IMG/VR virus record: IMGVR_UViG_3300029162_000078
Location: 1 to 13,007 of that record
DNA: 13,007 nucleotides
Reading direction: 5' to 3' (one strand)
DNA from: a virus
Lineage: Duplodnaviria; Heunggongvirae; Uroviricota; Caudoviricetes
Below, piece after piece: positions 1,369-13,007 of the stretch; the stretch's first letter is position 1, and each line of letters starts with the position of its first letter. A program made the position numbers and the translations under genes. The notes beneath the pieces were generated by a model. That model was not told the DNA's origin and ran no database searches. It worked only from the letters and a program-made list of their open reading frames with translations.

Positions 1369-1444
1369 GCCGATATAGCTCAGTTGGTAGAGCAGCGCAT
1401 TCGTAATGCGAAGGTCGTAGGTTCGACTCCTATTATCGGCACCA
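1369..1444 (+). tRNA. thrW: tRNA-Thr (anticodon CGU)
   Basis: 76-nt sequence GCCGATATAGCTCAGTTGGTAGAGCAGCGCATTCGTAATGCGAAGGTCGTAGGTTCGACTCCTATTATCGGCACCA folds as a cloverleaf by hand: 7-bp acceptor stem, D-arm GCTC/GAGC, anticodon loop TTCGTAA (anticodon CGT), T-arm GTAGG/CCTAT, encoded CCA end. Confidence 0.93.
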
Positions 1445-1445
1445 T
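1399..1445 (+). repeat. attL: 47-bp direct repeat (3' end of thrW), left prophage junction
   Basis: Positions 1399-1445 are identical to 11853-11899, with mismatches immediately outside both ends (1398 c vs 11852 a; 1446 t vs 11900 c). The repeat covers the 3' part of the tRNA, typical of tRNA-targeting tyrosine integrases. Confidence 0.8.
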
Positions 1446-1458
1446 TAAAATCAATAAG

Positions 1459-2622
1459 TTACACATCATTAGTACCTTCCTTATTTTTTGACTGGGACAA
1501 ATTTGGGACCGATGGGTTCAGGATCGAGTCTATTTGCCGTGCGTGTTCGGTAAGGTGATTAGGTGCAAGGTGAGCATATCGACGAACCATTTCGATAGAC
1601 TCCCAGCCTCCCATTTCCTGTAACACTGACAACGGGACTCCGGCTTGAACCAGCCAACTTGCCCAGGTGTGTCTCAAGTCGTGAAATCTGAAATCATCAA
1701 TACCAGCCCGTCTCAGCGCCGCTTTCCAGGCTGTGTTTGCGTCATACCGCATCTTCCTTACTGTTGGCGCTTTCGTTCCGTCTGGTTTGGTACAGCTTTC
1801 CTTGTACACAAATACCCAACGGTGATGATTCCCGATTTGTTTTTTCAATACGCGACATGCAGTATCATTCAGCGCAACGCCAATTGCGCGGTTTGATTTA
1901 CTCTCTTCCGGGTTTATCCATGCCACCCGGCGCTGCATATCTATTTGTTGCCATTCAAGGTTGATGATGTTCGAGCGTCTTAAGCCTGTTGCCAGTGCAA
2001 ATTCAACAACAGACTTTAATGGCTCCGGACATTCATCAATCAGCCTTTGTGCTTCATGGGGCTCCAGCCAGCGGATCCGTTTATTCTTTGGTTGAGGCAC
2101 TTTAATAATTGGTGCCTTATCCAGCATTTTCCATTCACGCTCTGCGGCTCTTAGTAGGGCCTTTATAAATGAAAGATGCGTAGCCTTCGTTGCAACGGAC
2201 GCTGGTTTTGGCGTGTATTCTGGAACAGGTTTCCCTTTTTTTCTGCATGCTTCTGCCCTGAGTTTCCAGTTTTCCTCATGACGCCGGTTCGTCATTTTCT
2301 GCATTGCTGAATAAATTTTTGATTCAGTAATGTCTCTTAGTTGCATTCCTGCGAAATGTTGAAGCCAGAATCCGATCCGGCTTTTGTCATCGTCCAGCGA
2401 TTTTTTATGTGCTTTCTCTTCAAGCCACCTGACACACGCTTCCTCGAACGTTATATCAGGTATTTCACCAAGTTTGCTGACCCGCCATGCTTCAGCCTTT
2501 AGCTTGTCATGGAGTTCTGTCGCCTGCCTTTTGTCCTTTGTTCCAAGAGACTGTTTAAATCTTTTACCGTTCGGCAATGTGAAACTGGCGTACCATATTT
2601 CACCTCTGCGGAAGAGTGACAT
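1459..2622 (-). CDS. int: Tyrosine-type site-specific integrase, phage P22 Int-like
   Basis: 387-aa ORF. N-terminus [41 protein letters not shown] and C-terminal catalytic region (...[39 protein letters not shown]) match the P22-type integrase family as I recall it. Adjacent to the thrW att site. Confidence 0.9.
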
Positions 2623-2849
2623 TTTCTTTCCTCTGTTATGCCATCACCCGCGCTCACCTGGACAGTATGCAGCGGAGACTGAAGAGCCGCAATGCAGGCT
2701 TGTCGTGTTGTGAGGTAAGGAGATTTATTCTTAGTGGGATCTTTGCGTGTTGCCTGAAGACGCCCTGTGCGTATCCAGTTAATGGCAGTCGGTCTGGATA
2801 TCTTGAGAAAATGACAGGCCTCATCGAGTGTGAGGCTGTATGGCTCCAT
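2499..2849 (-). CDS. xis: Excisionase, P22 Xis-like (116 aa)
   Basis: Within ORF 2499..2933 the protein most plausibly starts at [31 protein letters not shown] (ATG at 2849..2847, overlapping the upstream gene's TAA as TAATG). 116 aa, and its 3' end overlaps the int start by 124 nt. The sequence resembles P22 Xis as I recall it. Confidence 0.75.
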
Positions 2850-3154
2850 TATTTCACCTCTTGTTGTGACATTGTTGAAAAATGGATACCTGCTCGTTGC
2901 TGCCAGACGATCCAACCGAGAGTCATATCCCATGCCATGTATTCGTTATCGCCGTTTTTTGCTCTCCGACGATCTACTAAGTCACCGAAACGCTTTTCCA
3001 TGAATAATTCATAAGCTTCGCGTTCATCTGGTTCTACTTCCAGAGATAGGAGTGCGATTTCATAAGCACGGCGCTCAATATCGTCTCGCACGTCAAGGCT
3101 GCTGATACGCTCTTTAATTTCTTTAATCAGTTCTTTGTCGGTAAAAGTGGTCAT
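2849..3154 (-). CDS. Hypothetical small phage early-region protein (101 aa)
   Basis: ORF MTTFTDKELIKEIKERISSLDVRDDIERRAYEIALLSLEVEPDEREAY... with GGAGG about 10 nt upstream of the ATG at 3154. Start overlaps the upstream gene's stop and its stop overlaps the xis start (TAATG), consistent with an operon. No recognisable domain. Confidence 0.5.
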   Translation of the reverse strand: MTTFTDKELIKEIKERISSLDVRDDIERRAYEIALLSLEVEPDEREAYELFMEKRFGDLVDRRRAKNGDNEYMAWDMTLGWIVWQQRAGIHFSTMSQQEVK

Positions 3155-3516
3155 TATGCTCCAGCCTCCGGTGCTTTTGGCATTACTGCCCAGTGAGTGA
3201 TATTGACGTTTTCAAGGTCCCCGACCTGAAATGTCCACTGCCATTCTCCGGTTTCTTTTTGTCCCCAGGTGTACCAGAGAGAACGCCAGCCAATTAGCCA
3301 GCCTTCTCCGTTAGCATCGAATAACAAAACACTTTCATTTGCTGGTGGCAGTTCAGTTGACACTGGTATTACTTTGTTTTCCTGTGCTGCACATTTAGCT
3401 TCAAGCGCATCGAATTTACGCACCAGGTATTCAGCATCTGTTTCATTCACTTTCAGATCTCGCGGTACACATCTCCCACGAAGAAACCCTTCCATTTCGA
3501 AAACATTCATGCGCAT
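3154..3516 (-). CDS. DUF551-like phage protein (120 aa)
   Basis: ORF with GGAG 8 nt upstream of the ATG at 3516. C-terminal region ...KVIPVSTELPP...GWLIGWRSLWYTWGQ...NITHWAVMPKAPE resembles the Trp-rich DUF551 signature common in lambdoid/P22-like early regions (motif recollection, not a search). Confidence 0.55.
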   Translation of the reverse strand: MRMNVFEMEGFLRGRCVPRDLKVNETDAEYLVRKFDALEAKCAAQENKVIPVSTELPPANESVLLFDANGEGWLIGWRSLWYTWGQKETGEWQWTFQVGDLENVNITHWAVMPKAPEAGA

Positions 3517-4073
3517 TTGCGTAACTCCGATAACTCGTTAAAACGTTCCATAAACATCCCGTAGGCATGGCCCGGTGCCTGTGGAATCACTTTGAACATC
3601 TCTGTTGCCGGGATACCTTCCAGTACAGGCCAGAAAGAGCCATCATCAAGCCCGAGATCGCGGCGTTCGGTTGCCAGCATAATGAGATCGGCATATTTCA
3701 CTGGCGTGCTCATAACAGGAGGTAACCCGTATTTCTCACGTATTACGGCGTCTATTTTTTCTTCCATCCGTTTATAGTCAGGAAGAAGTCGTTTCAGTGG
3801 TGCGGGGATGTCCTGGCAATATGCTTCTGTTGCATCATGCATTAAAGCTTCAAAAGCAAATTCCTGTGGCACCAGCTGGCTGCAAAGCACCGCATGTTGG
3901 GCGACACTGTAGAAGTGTGAAAGATGTCCTGCAAAGCGACAGATATTTGAAAGGGAAATGCCAGCATAATGCTGGGGTATGTTTCTGATGCGATGAAAGT
4001 GGTGGATTCTGCCGTATCGGATGCCGCCAGGCTGTTGCAGGGGGATATCTCGGTACTTCTGCCGCCGCCATCG
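3507..4073 (-). CDS. HD-superfamily phosphohydrolase, YfbR/YfdR-like 5'-deoxynucleotidase; no canonical start in frame (probable 5'-damaged or truncated gene)
   Basis: The track ORF 3507..3890 begins at a GTG, but the same frame is open upstream to a TGA at 4074-4076. That upstream stretch reads ...GIRYGRIHHFHRIRNIPQHYAGISLSNICRFAGHLSHFYSVAQHAVLCSQLVPQEFAFEALMHDATEAYCQDIPAPLK..., giving the H...HD metal-binding pattern of YfbR-type nucleotidases. There is no ATG/GTG/TTG between the stop and the first His motif. Confidence 0.55.
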   Translation of the reverse strand, partial: RWRRQKYRDIPLQQPGGIRYGRIHHFHRIRNIPQHYAGISLSNICRFAGHLSHFYSVAQHAVLCSQLVPQEFAFEALMHDATEAYCQDIPAPLKRLLPDYKRMEEKIDAVIREKYGLPPVMSTPVKYADLIMLATERRDLGLDDGSFWPVLEGIPATEMFKVIPQAPGHAYGMFMERFNELSELRKCA

Positions 4074-4778
4074 TCAGGCAAAAATTTCGTTGAGCAGGTG
4101 CAGAAAATGTGGCGTACCGGGAAACGCCTTTATGGTAACGCCAGCGACCTGGTCACCATGATCAAAACGCTTTCCGGTGTCAGCCTCGGCAGTGATCTGC
4201 AACCGCGCGGCGTCTGGAAAACGGACAGTAAAACCACCGCTACGGCGACGCAGCAGCGTAACGTGGTTGCCAGCACCCTTCGTACGACCGCAATCAGCGA
4301 AGCGGCGTATGCCGTCACCCGATTGCCTGCGCCAACAACTTCCGCGGTGATGCAGAATGCCGCAGTGGGGCAGGCAACAACAGCTGCACAGAGCACCGGC
4401 TGGCCTTCCGTCACGCATCCGGCACTGAACAATGCACCGGCGGTGAAAAACACGGTTGACCTGCCGACGTGGGAAGAACTGACTGACATTCGCGACACAC
4501 TGAATACGGCAATTGATAAGGAGTTGTCCCGTACAACCAGTGATGCGCTGTTTCTGGCGCTGCGCCGGGTGAAAGCAGATCTGAATGCGGATATCAACAC
4601 GCGCCTTGAACAGTCTGCACGGATCATTCAGCGCACACCGGATGAGGTTTTACCCGCGCTGGTGCTGGCGGCGACCTGGTTTGATAACGCGGCGCGTGAC
4701 GCGGACATTATTCGGCGTAATGCCATTACGCATCCCGGCTTTGTGCCGGTGATCCCTCTGAAGGTGCCAGTGCAATGA
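3969..4778 (+). CDS. Mu gp43 (N)-like DNA circulation protein, C-terminal fragment (N-terminal half missing)
   Basis: 269-aa ORF (frame open from 3951) whose stop overlaps the start of the next baseplate gene (ATGA at 4775-4778). Position and context match the gene upstream of gp44 in Mu-like tail modules. Far shorter than a full-length protein, and its 5' end runs into the antisense HD gene. Confidence 0.55.
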   Translation: MLGYVSDAMKVVDSAVSDAARLLQGDISVLLPPPSSGKNFVEQVQKMWRTGKRLYGNASDLVTMIKTLSGVSLGSDLQPRGVWKTDSKTTATATQQRNVVASTLRTTAISEAAYAVTRLPAPTTSAVMQNAAVGQATTAAQSTGWPSVTHPALNNAPAVKNTVDLPTWEELTDIRDTLNTAIDKELSRTTSDALFLALRRVKADLNADINTRLEQSARIIQRTPDEVLPALVLAATWFDNAARDADIIRRNAITHPGFVPVIPLKVPVQ

Positions 4779-5866
4779 ACGACAATGTCACGCTACGGGT
4801 AAATGGCCGGGAGTGGAATGGCTGGACATCGGTGCGCATCGGTGCCGGTATTGAACGGCTGGCGCGGGATTTCAGTGTGGAGATCACCCGCCAGTGGCCG
4901 GGTGATGAGGGTATCACCACGCTTCAGCCGCGCATTAAAAACGGTTCAAAAGTGGAGGTGCTGATTGGTGATGAGCTGGTGATCACCGGCTGGGTGGAGG
5001 CGACGCCCGTTCGTTACGATGCCCGTTCGGTCAGCACCGGTATTGCCGGACGCAGTCTGACCGCTGACCTGATTGACTGTGCAGCCGAACCGACACAGTT
5101 TAACGGACGCTCGCTGGTGCAGATAGCGCAGGCGCTTGCTGCGCCTTTCGGCATTGAGGTGGTGAACAACGGTGCGCCGTCGGGTGTTATTCCTGACGTC
5201 CAGCCCGATCACGGCGAAACGGTGATTGAGGTGATCAACAAAATACTCGGTCAGCAGCAGGCACTGGCTTACGACGACCCGCACGGCAGGCTGGTGATTG
5301 GCGGTATTGGCTCAACGCGGGCACATACCGCGCTGGTACTTGGGGAAAACATCCTTTCCTGTGATACGGAGAAGAGTATCCGGGAGCGGTTTTCAGTTTA
5401 CCAGGTGGCGGGGCAGCGTGCCGGAAACGATGATGATTTCGGTGAGGCCACCACCACCGCGCTGCGGGCCCGCACAGAGGATGCATTTATTGCCCGTTAC
5501 CGTCCGATGTATATCAGGCAGACAGGGCAGGCTACGGGGGCAGGCTGTATTGCCCGTGCGGACTTTGAAGCCCGACAACGGGCGGCGCGGACGGATGAAA
5601 CCACCTATGTGGTGCAGGGCTGGCGACAGGGTAACGGTACGCTGTGGCAGCCCAACCAGCGGGTGATTGTCTTTGATCCGGTCTGTGGTTTCGACAATAC
5701 CGAACTGCTTGTTTCGGAAGTCACGTTTACTCAGGACCAGAACGGCACCCTGACGGAAATCCGTGTCGGCCCACCTGATGCTTATCTGCCTGAACCCGAA
5801 GCCCCGGCGCGCGGAAAAAGAAAAAAGCCAGAGTACAGGAGGACCCGTTCTGATGAGGACGATTGA
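4775..5866 (+). CDS. Baseplate hub protein, Mu gp44 (P)-like / phage late control D family
   Basis: 363-aa ORF, translationally coupled to neighbours. Gene order gp43-gp44-gp45-gp46-gp47-gp48 matches the Mu N-P-Q-V-W-R baseplate cluster. GC-rich with Lys/Arg-rich C-terminus. Confidence 0.75.
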   Translation: MNDNVTLRVNGREWNGWTSVRIGAGIERLARDFSVEITRQWPGDEGITTLQPRIKNGSKVEVLIGDELVITGWVEATPVRYDARSVSTGIAGRSLTADLIDCAAEPTQFNGRSLVQIAQALAAPFGIEVVNNGAPSGVIPDVQPDHGETVIEVINKILGQQQALAYDDPHGRLVIGGIGSTRAHTALVLGENILSCDTEKSIRERFSVYQVAGQRAGNDDDFGEATTTALRARTEDAFIARYRPMYIRQTGQATGAGCIARADFEARQRAARTDETTYVVQGWRQGNGTLWQPNQRVIVFDPVCGFDNTELLVSEVTFTQDQNGTLTEIRVGPPDAYLPEPEAPARGKRKKPEYRRTRSDEDD

Positions 5867-6401
5867 AGCCATGCAGCGACAACTCCTCGGCCTGATTGGG
5901 CGGGCAGTGGTGAAAAGCATCAGTGCCGCCACGAAATGTCAGACCGTGGATGTGTCTCTGATTGCCGGTGAACCCAAAGCCGGGGTTGAACATCTTGAAC
6001 CCTACGGTTTTACCTCAAGGGCAAACAGCGGTGCGGAAGCGGTGGTGTTGTTTCCGGATGGCGACCGTTCTCATGCGGTGGTTGTTACGGTGTCGGACCG
6101 GCGCTACCGCCTGAAAGGGCTGCAGACGGGTGAGGTGGCTGTCTATGACGATCAGGGGCAGTCCGTGACGCTGACCCGGGAGGGGATCGTGGTGGACGGT
6201 GCAGGTAAAACGATCACGTTTCGCAATTCACCTAAAGCACGTTTTGAAATGGACCTGGAAGTGACAGGACAGGTGAAAGACCTGTGCGACTCCGGCGGCA
6301 CCACCATGTCAGCGATGCGGCTTGCCTATAACGGGCATCGTCACAGAGAGAACGGTCAGGGCAGTAACACCGACAAACCTGATAAAGCGATGGAGGCATG
6401 A
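5853..6401 (+). CDS. Baseplate assembly protein V / spike, Mu gp45-like
   Basis: ATG at 5853 preceded by AGGAGG (5837-5842). Protein MRTIEAMQRQLLGLIGRAVVKSISAATKCQTVDVSLIAGEPKAGVEHLEPYGFTS... is typical of gpV-type baseplate spike proteins. The track ORF begins at 5763, but the RBS supports 5853. Confidence 0.75.
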   Translation: MRTIEAMQRQLLGLIGRAVVKSISAATKCQTVDVSLIAGEPKAGVEHLEPYGFTSRANSGAEAVVLFPDGDRSHAVVVTVSDRRYRLKGLQTGEVAVYDDQGQSVTLTREGIVVDGAGKTITFRNSPKARFEMDLEVTGQVKDLCDSGGTTMSAMRLAYNGHRHRENGQGSNTDKPDKAMEA

Positions 6402-6826
6402 TGGAACTGTGGCTGACGGTGAACGGTAAACGCACCTGCGCCAGCGCACCGCTGGATCCGCTGACCCGCGCCGTGGTGATTTCCCTGTTTACCTGGCGGC
6501 GGGCGGAGCCTGATGACAACGCCGACGTCCCGATGGGATGGTGGGGGGATACCTGGCCTGCGGTACAGAATGACCGTTACGGCTCCCGACTGTGGCTGCT
6601 TCAGCGCAGCAAACTGACCAATCAGCTGGTGCAGACGGTAAGGGGGTATATCCGCGAATGCCTGCAATGGATGATTGATGACGGCGTGGTGTCCCGTATT
6701 GATCTGGATATCCGCCGCACCGGGATTAATGAACTGGGTAACAGTATCACTCTCTGGCGTCGTGACGGACCGGTAATGATTTCTTTTGATGATCTGTGGA
6801 GTGCGATAACGCATGGCGGACAGTGA
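6398..6826 (+). CDS. Mu gp46-like baseplate protein (GP46 family)
   Basis: 142-aa ORF. Start ATG overlaps the gp45 stop (ATGA). Size and position match the Mu V / gp46 family. Confidence 0.7.
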   Translation: MMELWLTVNGKRTCASAPLDPLTRAVVISLFTWRRAEPDDNADVPMGWWGDTWPAVQNDRYGSRLWLLQRSKLTNQLVQTVRGYIRECLQWMIDDGVVSRIDLDIRRTGINELGNSITLWRRDGPVMISFDDLWSAITHGGQ

Positions 6827-7871
6827 ATTTCAGCGCCCGACGCTGGCAGAAAATATCAGTATGCTCCGTAACGATTTATTCGCCAGGCTGGACGTCAGCG
6901 ACACGCTCCGGCGCATGGATGAAGACGTGCGGGCAAAGGTGTATGCGGCGGCGCTGCATACGGTTTACGGTTACATCGATTATCTGGCAATGAACATGCT
7001 GCCTGACCTGTGCGATGAGTCCTGGCTGGCGCGACATGCTGCGATGAAACGGTGTCCGCGCAAGGGGGCCACGACTGCCAGCGGGTATATGCGCTGGGAA
7101 GGCGTCAGCGATGGCCTGAAGGTGACCGCCGGGAGTGTTATTCAGCGCGATGACCTGGTTCAGTACACGGCAACTGCCGATGCAACCAGCGCCGGTGGTG
7201 TCCTGCGCGTGCCGATCGCCTGCTCAAGTGCAGGCGCGGTCGGTAACGCTGACGACGGTACGTCATTAATCCTGGTCACGCCGGTTAATGGTCTGCCGTC
7301 TTCCGGCGTGGCAGACACTCTGACAGGTGGATTTGATACTGAAGATCTGGAAACGTGGCGCGCCCGCGTCATTGAGCGGTATTACTGGACTCCTCAGGGC
7401 GGGGCTGACGGGGACTATGTTGTCTGGGCTAAAGAAGTGCCCGGCATTACCCGCGCATGGGCATACCGTCACTGGATGGGAACGGGGACTGTCGGTGTGA
7501 TGATTGCCGGCAGTGACCTGATTAATCCGATTCCGGAAGAATCAACGGAAACGGCGGCAAGACAACATATCGGGCCACTGGCCCCGGTGGCAGGCTCTGA
7601 TTTGTATGTGTTCAGGCCGGTGGCGCATACGGTGGATTTTCATATCCGTGTGACGCCGGATACACCGGAAATACGGGCTGCCATCACCGCGGAGTTGCGT
7701 TCGTTCCTGCTGCGTGATGGTTATCCGCAGGGAGAACTGAAGGTGTCGCGTATCAGTGAAGCGATTTCCGGTGCGAACGGGGAATACAGCCATCAGTTGC
7801 TTGCACCGGCGGAAAATATCTCCATTGCAAAAAATGAACTGGCGGTTCTGGGGACGATTTCATGGACGTGA
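6813..7871 (+). CDS. Baseplate J-like protein, Mu gp47 (W)-like
   Basis: 352-aa ORF overlapping the gp46 3' end. Size and position match baseplate J family proteins of Mu/e14-type modules. Confidence 0.8.
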
Positions 7872-7980
7872 CAAACGATGATTACATCCGCCTGTTGTCG
7901 GCACTGCTGCCGCCCGGTCCGGCGTGGTCAGCCAGCGATCCGGCGATTGCCGGTGCGGCACCGTCATTAACCCGCGTTCA
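7862..7980 (+). pseudogene. Truncated Mu gp48-like tail protein (DUF2313 family), N-terminal stub of about 30-40 codons
   Basis: Start ATG overlaps the gp47 stop. N-terminus [22 protein letters not shown] matches the conserved start of gp48/YmfQ-type proteins. The frame then runs antisense into the 3' end of tfa (stop at 7981-7983 on the minus strand), so the rest of the gene is deleted. Confidence 0.5.
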
Positions 7981-8418
7981 TCAGCGTGCGGATGCCGGAG
8001 GCGTAGGCCATTCAATATCTGGCGTACCGGAAGTATCGACCAGTTCCAGTGCGTCCAGATAATCCAGCCACAAATTATATTGCGCCAGTTCCTCACCTTT
8101 CAGGCGACCAATCGCCGCTTTACCAAGCCATTGCTTTCTGTTTATGTATTCGTTGATCTGATTAATCAATTGCTGCTTTTCCAATTCGGCTGCGGCAATT
8201 TGTTCCTCATGAGTTGGCGGTGGAATATCAATCCATGCAGGCATTCCGTCGATGACACCTCTGTATTTTCCTTCTGGTGCTTCCTTCATAAATTCGGCAG
8301 CAACAGTGTCGTCAATTTCGATTCCATCACCGGGCCATTCGCCGGATTCCTGATAAGCGATTTTAAGCTCCACAGGGAAAAACGCATTTTTATCGGCACT
8401 GAAAATATATTTCTGCAT
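7981..8418 (-). CDS. tfa: Tail fibre assembly protein (Tfa; U'-type copy of an invertible segment)
   Basis: 145-aa ORF with AGGA-type RBS. C-terminus ...[18 protein letters not shown] matches the conserved ...VDTSxxPDIEWP... end of E. coli Tfa proteins. Lies directly downstream of the tail-fibre variable fragment on the same strand. Confidence 0.75.
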
Positions 8419-8420
8419 TT

Positions 8421-8819
8421 CTACCGTCCTATCGAAACATAACTGAATCTGTATTGCTGTGAGATGTCACTGGTTGCCACACGCCACGCTGAATTACTGA
8501 TATGTTCAAAATTTACAGACAAAACCTGCGGGGCAGGACTCGACGGGTCTGACTGAACGGCATCAGACATAACACTGACTGAAACCATCGGCTGATTAGG
8601 GAATGGTATAGGGAAGTGTCCACTGATAAAGCGGGTCGTGTTTCCTGAAAAAGTGCCAAACTGAACAATATATCCACCTGGTAGCCTGAACCATCCCGAA
8701 CCAGAAGCGAATGCTCCCATATCCGGTATCTGATTATCTCCTGTGCCCACATCCCTTTTCGCCGCTTCTCCCAAACCAACGTTTATGAAAATGCAGAAAT
8801 AACGAGCAAATGGCATCAT
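8421..8819 (-). pseudogene. Tail fibre C-terminal variable segment (S'v-type), no functional start; remnant of the invertible segment
   Basis: Open frame ending TAG at 8421-8423, immediately upstream of tfa. The reading frame passes through the crossover site at 8766-8791, where in intact Gin/Pin systems the constant N-terminal tail-fibre part would be joined. No constant-part gene exists in this window. Confidence 0.5.
8766..8791. other. Din-family invertase crossover site (pix/gix/hix-like), right boundary of the former invertible segment
   Basis: TTCTCCCAAACC-AA-CGTTTATGAAAA: 26 bp with imperfect dyad symmetry and the AAACC-NN-GGTTT-like core of hix/gix/cix sites (recalled consensus). Located 55 bp upstream of the pin start, where the invertase-proximal site lies in Mu G, P1 C and e14 P segments. 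Confidence 0.5.
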
Positions 8820-8845
8820 TCCTGCTTTTGTCAGGGAGATCTACC

Positions 8846-9400
8846 ATGCTTATTGGCTATGTACGTGTGTCAACAAATGACCAGAACACAGATCTACAAC
8901 GTAATGCGCTGAACTGTGCAGGATGCGAGCTGATTTTTGAAGACAAGATAAGCGGTACAAAGTCCGAAAGGCCGGGACTGAAAAAACTGCTCAGGACATT
9001 ATCGGCAGGTGACACTCTGGTTGTCTGGAAGCTGGATCGGCTGGGGCGCAGTATGCGGCATCTGGTCATTCTGGTTGAGGAGTTGCGCGAACGTGGCGTT
9101 AATTTTCGCAGCCTGACGGATGCTATTGATACCAGCACACCGATGGGGCGTTTTTTCTTTCATGTGATGGGTGCCCTGGCTGAAATGGAACGAGAACTGA
9201 TTGTTGAACGAACAAAAGCTGGACTGGAAGCTGCTCGCGCACAGGGACGAATTGGTGGACGTCGTCCCAAACTTACACCAGAACAATGGGTGCAGGCCGG
9301 ACGATTAATTGCATCAGGCGTTCCTCGCCAGAAGGTGGCGATCATCTATGATGTTGGTATATCGACACTGTATAAGAAGTTTCCGGTCGGAGATAAATGA
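8846..9400 (+). CDS. pin: Serine recombinase, DNA invertase of the Pin/Gin/Cin/Hin (Din) family
   Basis: ATG at 8846 with AGGGAG RBS gives a 184-aa protein: MLIGYVRVSTNDQNTDLQ... (catalytic Ser in the YVRVST motif), resolvase core, C-terminal HTH (...GVPRQKVAIIYDVGISTLYKKF). The track ORF starts 12 codons upstream at 8810. Confidence 0.9.
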   Translation: MLIGYVRVSTNDQNTDLQRNALNCAGCELIFEDKISGTKSERPGLKKLLRTLSAGDTLVVWKLDRLGRSMRHLVILVEELRERGVNFRSLTDAIDTSTPMGRFFFHVMGALAEMERELIVERTKAGLEAARAQGRIGGRRPKLTPEQWVQAGRLIASGVPRQKVAIIYDVGISTLYKKFPVGDK

Positions 9401-9440
9401 AACCGTAGCACGTCGTATGCAAGAAGATCGTGCTGCGGTT
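9399..9440 (+). repeat. Copy A of a roughly 40-bp imperfect palindromic repeat; probable bidirectional terminator between pin and the GIY-YIG gene
   Basis: GAAACCGTAGCACGTCGTATGCAAGAAGATCGTGCTGCGGTT: arms ACCGTAGCACG / CGTGCTGCGGT (10 of 11 complementary) around a 16-nt loop, followed by TTTATGCTTAT. Sits between two convergent genes. Confidence 0.5.
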
Positions 9441-9460
9441 TATGCTTATCACTTAAAGAC

Positions 9461-10330
<870 letters not shown>

Positions 10331-10420
10331 CTAACCCTTTGAATTTACATAGCGCAAAAAGATACCTTTCCTCATAATGTGAGCTAATTTTATGTTTCGT
10401 TTGATGATCGGGTCGGTCTC

Positions 10421-10460
10421 GAAACCCGTAGCCACGTCATATGCAAGAACGTGCTACGAC
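10421..10460 (+). repeat. Copy B of the roughly 40-bp imperfect palindromic repeat
   Basis: GAAACCCGTAGCCACGTCATATGCAAGAACGTGCTACGAC aligns with copy A over about 80% of positions (GAAACC-GTAGC-ACGTC-TATGCAAGAA-CGTGCT-CG). Same orientation as A, on the other side of the GIY-YIG gene. Confidence 0.5.
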
Positions 10461-10673
10461 TGGCTGGTGAACTTCCGATAGTGCGAGTATTGAATTATTT
10501 CCAACTGTTATCGATTTTGCGTATTTTTTGCATGAGAGGATTTTTACCTCCTCCCACCGATCCTCCATGGCTTTACGCCAGTGTCTCTGGTCTGCTATGT
10601 GCCAGGAGCAGCCATTGCTAAGTCCATCCTGTATTGTGCAGGTCAGCTCGTTTTTAAAGAGTCCGGCCATCAT
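10437..10673 (-). CDS. Hypothetical small protein (78 aa), doubtful
   Basis: ORF MMAGLFKNELTCTIQDGLSNGCSWHIADQRHWRKAMEDRWEEVK... with no convincing Shine-Dalgarno sequence or promoter. Its 3' end overlaps repeat B. Retained only as a possibility. Confidence 0.2.
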   Translation of the reverse strand: MMAGLFKNELTCTIQDGLSNGCSWHIADQRHWRKAMEDRWEEVKILSCKKYAKSITVGNNSILALSEVHQPVVARSCI

Positions 10674-10811
10674 CTTACTGGTACAGACACCATATACTTT
10701 GTGACGGTCAGGCTACATATGCACAACTCAACTTATTCATCTATTTTTTGCTTTAGCATGTCAGTGTTGCTTTCTCGTCGGCGGGTGAGCGGTGACCTGA
10801 CCTGTCGATAA

Positions 10812-11383: not shown

Positions 11384-11852
11384 CGCCATCAGCCTTTTCT
11401 TTAAAGACATATTATCTTTGTATCATTTCTGATAGTTAACATTACAAGATATAAGTAATGGACGCACTCCCAATTAGTCTATTTAAATCGCCACGAGTTT
11501 AACTGACAACCCATGATCAATTATGAATTGCAACTATTTCTGTAGTCACTTTTGTGGGGACAGTCCACAAAACTGCCAACTTCCGCTTCTTGCTCATAAC
11601 AGACATAAACTTCAGTTATGGCATAAAGGTATGCATGCTGGGTGGGGAAAGTATGAAGGAAAAGAAGACTGCTGCGCCGTTTGTCGTCACGTTTATCTTC
11701 ATTGGCTATGCAAGTCGTAATACAAGGTGGGACAAAACTGAGACACATAAGGCCTCGCAATGGCTTGCAAGGCTTTACATGTTTTGATGTGGTGGGACGT
11801 GTGAGCGCAGTGTTGATGGGGTAATGCTTTGAATTAGAAGTGGATTCTTATA

Positions 11853-11899
11853 ATTCGTAATGCGAAGGTCGTAGGTTCGACTCCTATTATCGGCACCAT
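11853..11899 (+). repeat. attR: 47-bp direct repeat duplicating the 3' end of thrW; right prophage junction
   Basis: Identical to 1399-1445. A partial tRNA-Thr 3' fragment without the 5' half of the tRNA. The right boundary of the island lies here. Confidence 0.8.
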
Positions 11900-12362: not shown

Positions 12363-13007
12363 ATGGCTACTGCAGAGCAGATCAAAGCTTTATTGAAAAG
12401 CCACGTTGATCGTGATGATCAGCGTTTCTTTTCTATTGCTTTGCAGGTGGCAGCTAAGGAAGCAAGGCAAGGTCATCATAAGCTTGCTAATGATATAAAA
12501 AACTTAGTTGATAAAAATCAGAAAACAACGAGTTCTGTAGGTTTAGTTGAAAAACGACTTACACCATTTGTTAAGCAGCCTGATGGTGATCTTAAGGGGT
12601 TACTTGAGCAAACGAACAAGCCAGTACATCTTCAAGATCTGGTGATTTCTGGAAGCGTTAGGGAAAGATTGAATCAGGTTCTGCTTGAACAAAAACAGAA
12701 AGATAAACTTTCTGAGTTTGGGCTTATTCCAAGAAGAAAAATTCTTTTCACTGGTCCTCCCGGTACTGGTAAGACAATGTCCGCATCAGTCATTGCTACA
12801 GAGTTAAAGCTACCACTTTATACAGTCGTCTTAGATAATCTAATCACTCGCTATATGGGTGAAACTGCAGCTAAGCTGCGTTTAATTTTTGACCACATAC
12901 GGCAAACAAGAGCTGTATATTTTTTTGACGAGTTCGATGCTATAGGAACTCAGCGTGGCGCTCAGAATGACGTTGGAGAAATTCGGGTAATGACTCCAAC
13001 TTATTGA
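12363..13007 (+). CDS. Classic-clade AAA+ ATPase with N-terminal helical domain; ORF ends about 30 codons after Walker B (truncated, frameshifted, or cut by the window)
   Basis: Walker A ILFTGPPGTGKT, then YMGETAAKLRLIF and Walker B AVYFFDEFDAIG with the following TQRG motif. The ORF stops (TGA 13005-13007) before the expected NQLL...DG sensor region. The +2 frame over the last about 20 nt reads ...NDSNLL, which resembles that expected continuation. Preceded by about 460 bp of AT-rich non-coding DNA. Confidence 0.7.
   Translation: MATAEQIKALLKSHVDRDDQRFFSIALQVAAKEARQGHHKLANDIKNLVDKNQKTTSSVGLVEKRLTPFVKQPDGDLKGLLEQTNKPVHLQDLVISGSVRERLNQVLLEQKQKDKLSEFGLIPRRKILFTGPPGTGKTMSASVIATELKLPLYTVVLDNLITRYMGETAAKLRLIFDHIRQTRAVYFFDEFDAIGTQRGAQNDVGEIRVMTPTY

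What the first reader, a model, noticed from the sequence alone, without database searches (positions are those of the whole stretch)
3890..4080. Deletion scar where the HD hydrolase loses its start and gp43 loses its N-terminal half
Seen in sequence: on the minus strand the HD-domain frame is open from 4073 down to 3507 and contains both His motifs, but has no canonical start codon and an in-frame TGA at 4074-4076. On the plus strand the gp43-like frame opens only at 3951 and encodes a C-terminal fragment. Two unrelated modules on opposite strands therefore meet head-to-head within about 120 bp. Inference: one deletion or illegitimate recombination event fused the P22-like early region to the Mu-like tail module and removed everything between them.
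Basis: partly seen in the sequence, partly recalled or inferred. Interest (0 to 1): 0.4.

Follow-up and report, generated by a model that had tools for sequence, protein, structure and literature searches.

The report
Deletion scar in a decayed prophage
This is the junction left by a roughly 26-27 kb internal deletion in an SfV-family prophage sitting in the E. coli thrW tRNA gene, which beheaded two phage genes at once; it is an ordinary example of how dead prophages shrink.

Summary
The yfdR gene (HD-domain 5'-deoxynucleotidase, 178 aa when intact) keeps only codons 29-178 (3507-3959, minus strand). The Mu-N/gp43-like DNA circularization gene (442 aa when intact) keeps only codons 170-442 (3957-4778, plus strand). 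The two homology blocks overlap by 3 nt (AAT, 3957-3959), with no filler DNA and no IS element.

The two modules are not foreign to each other. Phages SfV and SfIV, and an apparently complete thrW prophage in E. coli EC6622, carry both in this order and orientation. The scar is therefore an internal deletion of 26.1 kb (SfV), 26.5 kb (SfIV) or 27.2 kb (EC6622). It removed immunity, replication, lysis, head and tail-shaft genes.

The remnant is 10.5 kb, between 47-nt attL and attR repeats. It also carries a second 1.8-kb deletion scar and a frameshift. Related remnants in other strains have different junctions with 0-4 nt of microhomology.

The exact junction is absent from 5,426 complete E. 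coli genomes but present in at least 23 independent public contigs, so it is real and inherited. Both genes are pseudogenes; the GTG-3890 ORF lacks His50 and a ribosome-binding site. One curiosity is unexplained: a perfect 15-nt palindrome lies next to both parental breakpoints.

The parts
1369..1444 (+). thrW tRNA-Thr(CGT), the integration site. attL is the 47-nt repeat at 1399-1445.
   Evidence: ARAGORN, Rfam tRNA at 71.8 bits, and the perfect 47-nt direct repeat 1399-1445 / 11853-11899.
1459..2622 (-). Intact SfV/P22-type tyrosine integrase, 387 aa.
   Evidence: ORF list. PF00589 is recorded for the identical gene in L006-L008. It is colinear with SfIV int at 98.9% identity.
2499..2933 (-). 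Excisionase-like HTH_17 gene.
   Evidence: Pfam HTH_17, E 3e-8. It corresponds to SfIV/SfV xis.
2849..3516 (-). yfdT (2849-3154) and yfdS, a DUF551 protein (3154-3516). Both are intact early-left genes.
   Evidence: RefSeq names in colinear loci. Pfam DUF551.
3507..3959 (-). yfdR pseudogene. Codons Ile29-Ala178 of the 178-aa HD-domain 5'-deoxynucleotidase remain. The start codon and the first 28 codons are deleted.
   Evidence: The 150 retained residues are identical to the BE2-5 YfdR. Nucleotide homology ends at 3959. Aligned to PDB 2gz4 over residues 19-175.
3957..3959 (.). Deletion breakpoint. The 3-nt microhomology AAT is shared by both parental sequences (5 of 6 over GGNAAT).
   Evidence: Three-way alignment of the window, intact yfdR (L003/L004) and the intact circularization gene (L002).
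3957..4778 (+). Pseudogene of the Mu-N/gp43-like DNA circularization (baseplate) protein. Codons Asn170-Gln442 remain. The first 169 codons, including the whole PF07157 domain, are deleted.
   Evidence: PF07157 covers residues 7-93 of the full-length protein, and the fragment has no Pfam hit. The full-length homologue matches Mu protein N, PDB 9ki1, E 3.5e-14.
3961..3975 (.). Perfect 15-nt palindrome CCAGCATAATGCTGG, native to the circularization gene, 2 nt from the breakpoint. Its counterpart ATCGTTAATAACGAT lay 7 nt inside the deleted side of yfdR.
4775..7871 (+). Retained Mu-like baseplate genes: the hub gene (gp44/P homologue, 4775-5866, frameshifted at the C-run 5802-5805), gp45, gp46 and the gp47/J homologue.
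   Evidence: Pfam. The 1-nt deletion relative to L006 and SfIV.
7993..7996 (.). Second deletion scar (TGCC microhomology). It fuses the truncated ymfQ/gp48 homologue (ORF 7862-8062) to the 3' end of a minus-strand tail-fibre assembly gene.
11853..11899 (+). attR, a 47-nt repeat of the thrW 3' end. It marks the end of the 10.5-kb remnant.

Best explanation
The site is the junction of an internal deletion in an SfV-family temperate prophage integrated in thrW, next to proA. An intact parent of the EC6622 type runs attL-int-xis-yfdT-yfdS-yfdR-...immunity-replication-Q-lysis-terminase-head-sheath-tube-tape measure-circularization protein-baseplate-tail fibres-pin-PD-T4-3-attR.

A RecA-independent, illegitimate joining event then occurred (inferred). 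It joined codon 29 of yfdR to codon 170 of the circularization gene at a shared AAT. It removed about 26-27 kb, equal to 37 whole genes in SfV.

Consequences (inferred from gene content):
- The element can no longer replicate, lyse the cell or build particles.
- yfdR has lost its start codon, ribosome-binding site, 28 conserved N-terminal residues and its upstream pL-type operon. The circularization gene has lost its defining N-terminal domain and its late promoter. Both are dead pseudogenes whose frames merely run on into each other's antisense.

The remnant then kept decaying, with a second 1.8-kb deletion and a 1-nt frameshift.
For: - Nucleotide-level breakpoint with 3-nt microhomology, no filler DNA and no IS element.
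- Full-length YfdR is 178 aa and the full-length circularization protein is 442-458 aa in relatives.
- Both flanks are colinear with single genomes, on the same strand and in prophage order: SfIV, SfV and EC6622. These give deletion sizes of 26,519, 26,101 and 27,206 bp.
- Perfect 47-nt attL/attR repeats bracket the remnant.
- Four other scars in this prophage family have 0, 2, 4 and 4 nt of microhomology at different positions, so decay by such deletions recurs.
- The junction is identical in independent assemblies, and some of them still have the unframeshifted hub gene.
- No sigma-70-like promoter lies in 3400-4900 on either strand.
- No Shine-Dalgarno pairing precedes GTG 3890 (+0.6 kcal/mol, against -6.4 for the native yfdR start).
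- His50, equivalent to the conserved VAQH histidine of PDB 2gz4, lies upstream of that GTG.
Against: - The exact parent is not available. The closest left flank (BE2-5, 99.7%) and the closest right flank (20AR0354, 98.9%) come from different strains, so ancestry is mosaic.
- A 3-nt microhomology is only marginally above chance, about 5% for 3 nt or more under a simple random-junction model (my estimate). The enzymology is therefore inferred, not shown.
- PGAP annotates the 127-aa GTG-3890 ORF as 'HD family hydrolase' in E. coli drafts, so expression of a fragment is not formally excluded.
- No expression data were available.
Confidence: 0.9

Rival explanations
1. The present junction is the last of several nested deletions rather than a single 26-kb event. 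An earlier, smaller scar, such as the Q'|circ' junction seen in TUM10008, would have been swallowed by a later deletion running from yfdR into the circularization gene.
For: Relatives show that partial intermediates exist. TUM10008 retains yfdR-KilA'-DUF968-Q' fused to a 1200-bp circularization fragment. Strain 1409 has yfdP' fused to a 732-bp fragment. The window itself has suffered at least two further lesions.
Against: The window's right flank differs from TUM10008 by 91 mismatches in 4 kb (97.7%) and is closer to intact prophages (98.9% to L002), so it is not a direct derivative of that scar. Strain 1409 retains less of the circularization gene than the window, so it cannot be the ancestor either. 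Nothing in the sequence distinguishes one step from several.
Confidence: 0.25
2. The junction arose by illegitimate recombination between two different resident prophages, for example a CPS-53/KplE1-like element carrying yfdR and a separate Mu-tail prophage. In that case it would be a true chimera.
For: The yfdPQRST cluster also occurs in argW-integrated CPS-53-like elements. The best matches to the left and right flanks come from different strains.
Against: Order, strand and att sites are exactly those of one integrated SfV/SfIV/EC6622-type genome. Complete prophages with both modules occupy the same thrW site. An inter-element event would usually also rearrange or delete chromosomal DNA between the two elements, yet attL and attR are both intact and 10.5 kb apart.
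Confidence: 0.04
3. Both ORFs are genuine short genes, or yfdR uses a non-canonical start, so nothing is broken.
For: The minus-strand frame stays open for 38 codons beyond the homology. PGAP calls a 127-aa 'HD family hydrolase'.
Against: The 38 extra codons are antisense of the circularization gene and match nothing in YfdR. No in-frame ATG/GTG/TTG lies upstream of 3890. In-frame ATC/ATT/ATA/CTG codons have no or weak SD pairing, -4.8 kcal/mol at best. None of the 5,426 complete E. coli genomes carries this junction, and yfdR DNA matches in them end at window 3958-3960. In every related prophage inspected the gene is the full 537 bp.
Confidence: 0.01
4. The junction is a mis-assembly that joins two contigs.
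For: None, beyond its absence from the complete RefSeq E. coli genomes and from the GTDB representatives.
Against: The junction is identical in ENA metagenome scaffolds and Logan assemblies from many samples: 23 contigs were read, 48 blocks are indexed, and one contig type occurs in 20 or more samples.
Confidence: 0.01

Closest known systems
Shigella/Escherichia serotype-converting phages SfV, SfIV, SfII and SfI (thrW-integrating, HK97-like head, Mu-like contractile tail)
   Same: The int-xis-yfdT-yfdS-yfdR block is 98.5-98.9% identical and the circularization-baseplate block is 97.8-98.2% identical. Order, orientation and the thrW att site are the same (PMC3851460).
   Different: The window lacks the central roughly 26 kb. 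In place of the gtrABV serotype-conversion locus it carries a Pin-invertible tail-fibre segment, the PD-T4-3 gene and flxA.
Apparently complete thrW prophage of E. coli EC6622 (NZ_CP096587) and its relatives in Combat11I9 and 20AR0354
   Same: Same chromosomal site (proA-thrW). Same left end and the same right-end cargo (pinE, LEM-3-like GIY-YIG/PD-T4-3, flxA). This is the best available model of the parent.
   Different: EC6622 retains the 27.2 kb and the 1.8 kb that are deleted in the window, and its hub gene is in frame.
CPS-53/KplE1 cryptic prophage of E. coli K-12, and other decayed relatives (strains 1409, TUM10008, BE2-5)
   Same: They carry the yfdPQRST gene cluster. They are defective prophages shaped by internal deletions that leave head-to-head truncated genes, which PGAP annotates as 'incomplete; partial in the middle of a contig'. 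YfdR is an HD-domain protein that binds DnaA (PMC4776307).
   Different: Their junctions differ: yfdP'|circ' in strain 1409, Q'|circ' in TUM10008, and HNH'|gpV in BE2-5. Strain 1409's element lies next to torI and dsdC rather than at thrW, which by my recollection is the argW-region position of K-12's CPS-53. yfdR is intact in those strains.
Short-homology illegitimate recombination / microhomology-mediated deletion in E. coli (general knowledge, not tested here)
   Same: 0-4 nt of microhomology at five scars, no filler DNA and no mobile element at the junctions.
   Different: No enzymatic evidence was obtained. Palindromes next to both breakpoints are seen only at this scar.

Membership tests
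YfdR / HD-domain 5'-deoxynucleotidase | Near-identity to annotated yfdR over the retained part | tested here: met
   150 of 150 residues are identical to the BE2-5 YfdR, and the DNA is 100% identical over 160 nt in many genomes.
YfdR / HD-domain 5'-deoxynucleotidase | H...HD...D metal-binding motif present in the reading frame | tested here: met
   His50 (VAQH) and His69-Asp70 (MHDATE) align with the TVAQH and LHDAPE motifs of PDB 2gz4. Both lie in the open frame 3507-3959.
YfdR / HD-domain 5'-deoxynucleotidase | Complete coding sequence (178 aa) with a start codon and ribosome-binding site | tested here: not met
   Codons 1-28 and the upstream region are deleted. The first canonical start is the GTG at Val52, which has no SD pairing.
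YfdR / HD-domain 5'-deoxynucleotidase | Score above the curated threshold of Pfam YfbR-like (PF12917) or NCBIfam NF003009 | tested here: not met
   The fragment scores 24.3 bits against a 25.9 cutoff. Intact YfdR also falls below it (24.5 bits), so the models simply do not capture this divergent subfamily.
Mu N (gp43) DNA circularization / baseplate protein | N-terminal DNA_circ_N domain (PF07157) | tested here: not met
   Present at residues 7-93 of the full-length homologue (E 5.5e-34). It lies entirely within the deleted 169 codons, and the 269-aa fragment has no Pfam hit.
Mu N (gp43) DNA circularization / baseplate protein | Sequence homology of the parent gene to Mu protein N | tested here: met
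   The full-length homologue matches PDB 9ki1 'DNA circularization protein N' over residues 10-433, E 3.5e-14. The window fragment is identical to residues 170-442 of that homologue.
SfV-family thrW prophage | Integration in thrW with flanking att repeats and an SfV/P22-type integrase | tested here: met
   47-nt perfect repeats at 1399-1445 and 11853-11899. The int gene is colinear with SfIV and SfV at 98.5-98.9% identity.
SfV-family thrW prophage | gtrA-gtrB-gtr(type) serotype-conversion locus next to attP | tested here: not met
   No SfIV or SfV gtr sequence matches the window. That position holds pin, PD-T4-3 and flxA instead.
SfV-family thrW prophage | Complete set of immunity, replication, lysis, head and tail-shaft genes (that is, a functional phage) | tested here: not met
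   All of these lie within the deleted 26-27 kb.
Microhomology-mediated illegitimate deletion | Short shared sequence at the junction, with no inserted DNA, IS element or recombinase site | tested here: met
   AAT is shared by both parents and the homology blocks overlap by 3 nt. No repeat family or IS element lies at the site.
Microhomology-mediated illegitimate deletion | RecA-independence, and the enzyme responsible | not testable with these tools
   Requires genetics.

The most novel reading that the evidence does not exclude
The two endpoints of this 26-kb deletion may not be random. Each parental breakpoint sits 5-7 nt to the same side of a perfect 15-nt palindrome with 7-bp arms (ATCGTTAATAACGAT in yfdR, CCAGCATAATGCTGG in the circularization gene). 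Only 2.4% of positions in SfIV lie within 10 nt of such a palindrome, so both ends doing so has a post-hoc chance of about 6e-4. The scar could therefore record a hairpin-directed long-range deletion, caused by replication stalling, template switching or nuclease cutting at hairpins, followed by joining at AAT. None of the eight breakpoints of four other scars shows this.
Probability: 0.12. Interest if true: 0.3.

Novelty: already known. Interest (0 to 1): 0.1.

Why it matters
The finding matters little beyond annotation.
- It shows that the 127-aa 'HD family hydrolase' and the 269-aa 'DNA circularization protein, partial' called in carrier genomes are two halves of one deletion scar and should be marked as pseudogenes.
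- It adds one nucleotide-resolved example to a small series of five independent scars with 0-4 nt of microhomology. The series illustrates how SfV-family prophages at thrW and argW are whittled down while int, xis, the att sites and a defence gene (PD-T4-3) survive.
- The series could serve as a natural data set on prophage decay. The paired palindromes are a minor lead on deletion mechanism.

Tried and rejected
- Exact 26-mer junction scan of the GTDB species representatives: 0 hits. This is uninformative, because E. coli and Shigella are represented by one genome.
- A 301-nt junction query against 5,426 complete E. coli genomes: no record spans the junction. The carriers were instead found through an exact-protein look-up.
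- Non-canonical start search: in-frame ATC/ATT/ATA/CTG codons between 4073 and 3891 have weak or no SD pairing. Rejected.
- Promoter scan of 3400-4900: none on either strand.
- Rfam scan of the whole window: only thrW.
- PADLOC scan of YfdR', YfdS and YfdT: no hits.
- Test of whether palindromes accompany the breakpoints of the other four scars: none do. A general palindrome rule is rejected.
- Idea that the window's scar derives from the TUM10008 or strain 1409 scars: rejected on flank divergence and on retained-fragment lengths of 825 bp versus 1200 and 732 bp.
- Idea that the circularization gene is a deletion hotspot (three of four comparator scars end in it): not claimed. Those comparators were picked up because they match a query containing that gene, which is an ascertainment bias.

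Full report
**Observation**

On the minus strand the frame ending at the stop codon 3507-3509 is open up to 4073, and an in-frame TGA sits at 4074-4076. The first ATG/GTG/TTG in that frame is the GTG at 3890. On the plus strand the frame ending at 4778 opens at 3951, after a TGA at 3948-3950. Its first ATG is at 3969.

**Identity of the two genes**

Megablast against 5,426 complete E. coli genomes labels the left side yfdR (5'-deoxynucleotidase) and the right side 'DNA circularization protein', followed by baseplate genes.

Intact YfdR is 178 aa. The window keeps Ile29-Ala178, and these 150 residues are identical to the BE2-5 protein. YfdR aligns to the HD-domain structure 2gz4 over residues 19-175. 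His50 (VAQH) and His69-Asp70 are the conserved motif residues.

The intact circularization protein is 442 aa (458 as annotated in SfIV). The window keeps Asn170-Gln442. The full-length protein carries PF07157 (DNA_circ_N) at residues 7-93, entirely within the deleted part, which is why the fragment has no Pfam hit. It is homologous to phage Mu protein N (PDB 9ki1, E 3.5e-14).

**Breakpoint**

I aligned the window with intact yfdR (L003, L004) and with the intact circularization gene (L002). Left homology runs through 3959 and right homology starts at 3957. The breakpoint is therefore the shared triplet AAT at 3957-3959, with a 5-of-6 match over GGNAAT. There is no filler DNA and no IS element.

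**What was deleted**

The two modules are not strangers. SfIV and SfV carry int-xis-yfdT-yfdS-yfdR on one side of attP and the Mu-like tail genes on the other (PMC3851460 notes thrW integration and the conserved orf30-34 cluster). Window 1399-3958 matches SfIV 23198-25757 at 98.9%, and window 3954-7996 matches SfIV 12514-16557 at 98.2%. Both are on the same strand, in the order expected of an integrated prophage.

E. coli EC6622 has an apparently complete prophage of about 39.5 kb at the same proA-thrW site, with the same right-end cargo.

| Reference | Deleted length |
|---|---|
| EC6622 | 27,206 bp, including an IS1 |
| SfIV | 26,519 bp |
| SfV | 26,101 bp |

The deleted DNA covers yfdQ through immunity, replication, Q, lysis, terminase, head, sheath, tube and tape measure. 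The remnant is bounded by perfect 47-nt repeats of the thrW 3' end at 1399-1445 and 11853-11899.

**Is it real and inherited?**

No complete RefSeq E. coli genome and no GTDB representative carries the junction. However, the exact 269-aa product is indexed in 48 blocks of public assemblies. Three fetched contigs carry the identical junction, and L007 is 100% identical to window 1393-10778. NCBI E. coli draft genomes list the 127-aa GTG-3890 ORF as 'HD family hydrolase'.

L006 and L008 have the scar but an intact hub gene. The window and L007 also carry a 1-nt deletion in the C-run at 5802-5805, so the scar predates that frameshift.

**Are the fragments expressed?**

This is inferred, not shown.
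- No sigma-70-like promoter is found in 3400-4900 on either strand.
- GTG 3890 has no Shine-Dalgarno pairing: +0.6 kcal/mol, against -6.4 for the native yfdR start.
- A product from that GTG would begin at Val52 and so lack His50.
- In-frame non-canonical codons upstream have weak pairing at best.
- The native transcription sources, the early-left and late operons, lie in the deleted DNA.

I conclude that both are pseudogenes.

**Context of decay**

Related remnants carry other junctions.

| Scar | Junction | Microhomology |
|---|---|---|
| Window, 3957-3959 | yfdR' fused to circ' | 3 nt (AAT) |
| TUM10008 | antiterminator' fused to a 1200-bp circ' | 0 nt |
| Strain 1409 (next to torI/dsdC) | yfdP' fused to a 732-bp circ' | 2 nt |
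| BE2-5 | HNH' fused to gpV | 4 nt |
| Window, 7993-7996 | ymfQ' fused to an inverted tail-fibre assembly gene; 1.8 kb lost relative to EC6622 | 4 nt (TGCC) |

The window's scar cannot derive from the TUM10008 or strain 1409 scars, on flank divergence and on retained-fragment lengths. Whether it formed in one step or swallowed earlier nested deletions cannot be decided.

**An unexplained detail**

Both parental breakpoints of scar 1 are followed, 5-7 nt to the right, by a perfect 15-nt palindrome. ATCGTTAATAACGAT in yfdR was lost. CCAGCATAATGCTGG survives at 3961-3975. Only 2.4% of SfIV positions lie within 10 nt of such a palindrome, so both ends doing so has a post-hoc chance of about 6e-4. 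None of the eight breakpoints of the other scars has one. I treat this as a weak lead, not a finding.

**Comparison and verdict**

This is a textbook cryptic-prophage deletion scar in a known phage family. It is related to, but different from, the scars of K-12's CPS-53/KplE1 and of other strains. The 'fusion of unrelated modules' wording and the 'one event' claim go beyond the evidence. Interest is low.

Noticed in passing
window 7993-7996 (ORF 7862-8062, + strand; tfa gene 7981-8418, - strand): A second deletion scar. The ymfQ/Mu-gp48 homologue is cut after nt 135 (66-aa ORF) and joined at a 4-nt TGCC microhomology to the 3' end of a minus-strand tail-fibre assembly gene. About 1.8 kb is lost relative to EC6622, in the flipped state of the Pin-invertible segment.
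   Followed up: yes
window 5802-5805: A 1-nt deletion in a C5 run (now C4) frameshifts the last ~15 codons of the baseplate hub (Mu gp44/P) gene and shifts its overlap with gp45. L006 and L008 carry scar 1 but not this frameshift.
   Followed up: yes
window 9461-10285 (-): A LEM-3-like GIY-YIG protein matches the PD-T4-3 anti-phage defence model at E 2.6e-140. It sits in the moron position where SfV carries gtrABV, and its presence might explain why the remnant is kept.
   Followed up: partly
window 12363-13007 (+), cut by the window end: An AAA ATPase matches IetA of the IetAS defence system (E 1.9e-50). It lies just outside attR, in an island that is absent from EC6622, BE2-5 and TUM10008 at this site.
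   Followed up: partly
window 3961-3975 and L003 4966-4980: Perfect 15-nt palindromes lie next to both parental breakpoints of scar 1 (chance about 6e-4, post hoc). They are absent from the eight breakpoints of the other four scars.
   Followed up: partly
window 8810-9400 (+) with 7981-8819 (-): An intact Pin/Hin-type serine invertase lies next to what is left of the invertible tail-fibre segment. The segment is now truncated on one side, so inversion is probably no longer possible; the recombination sites were not mapped.
   Followed up: no
L003 17990-18590 versus window ~11578-11598: BE2-5 carries about 600 bp extra, a '4-fold beta flower protein' gene, between flxA and attR that the window and EC6622 lack. 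The window's two alignment blocks to BE2-5 overlap by 21 nt.
   Followed up: no
window 3507-3890 (-): NCBI PGAP annotates this 127-aa GTG-start ORF as 'HD family hydrolase' in E. coli draft genomes (for example EIG8051844.1). It is a truncated pseudogene fragment lacking His50.
   Followed up: yes
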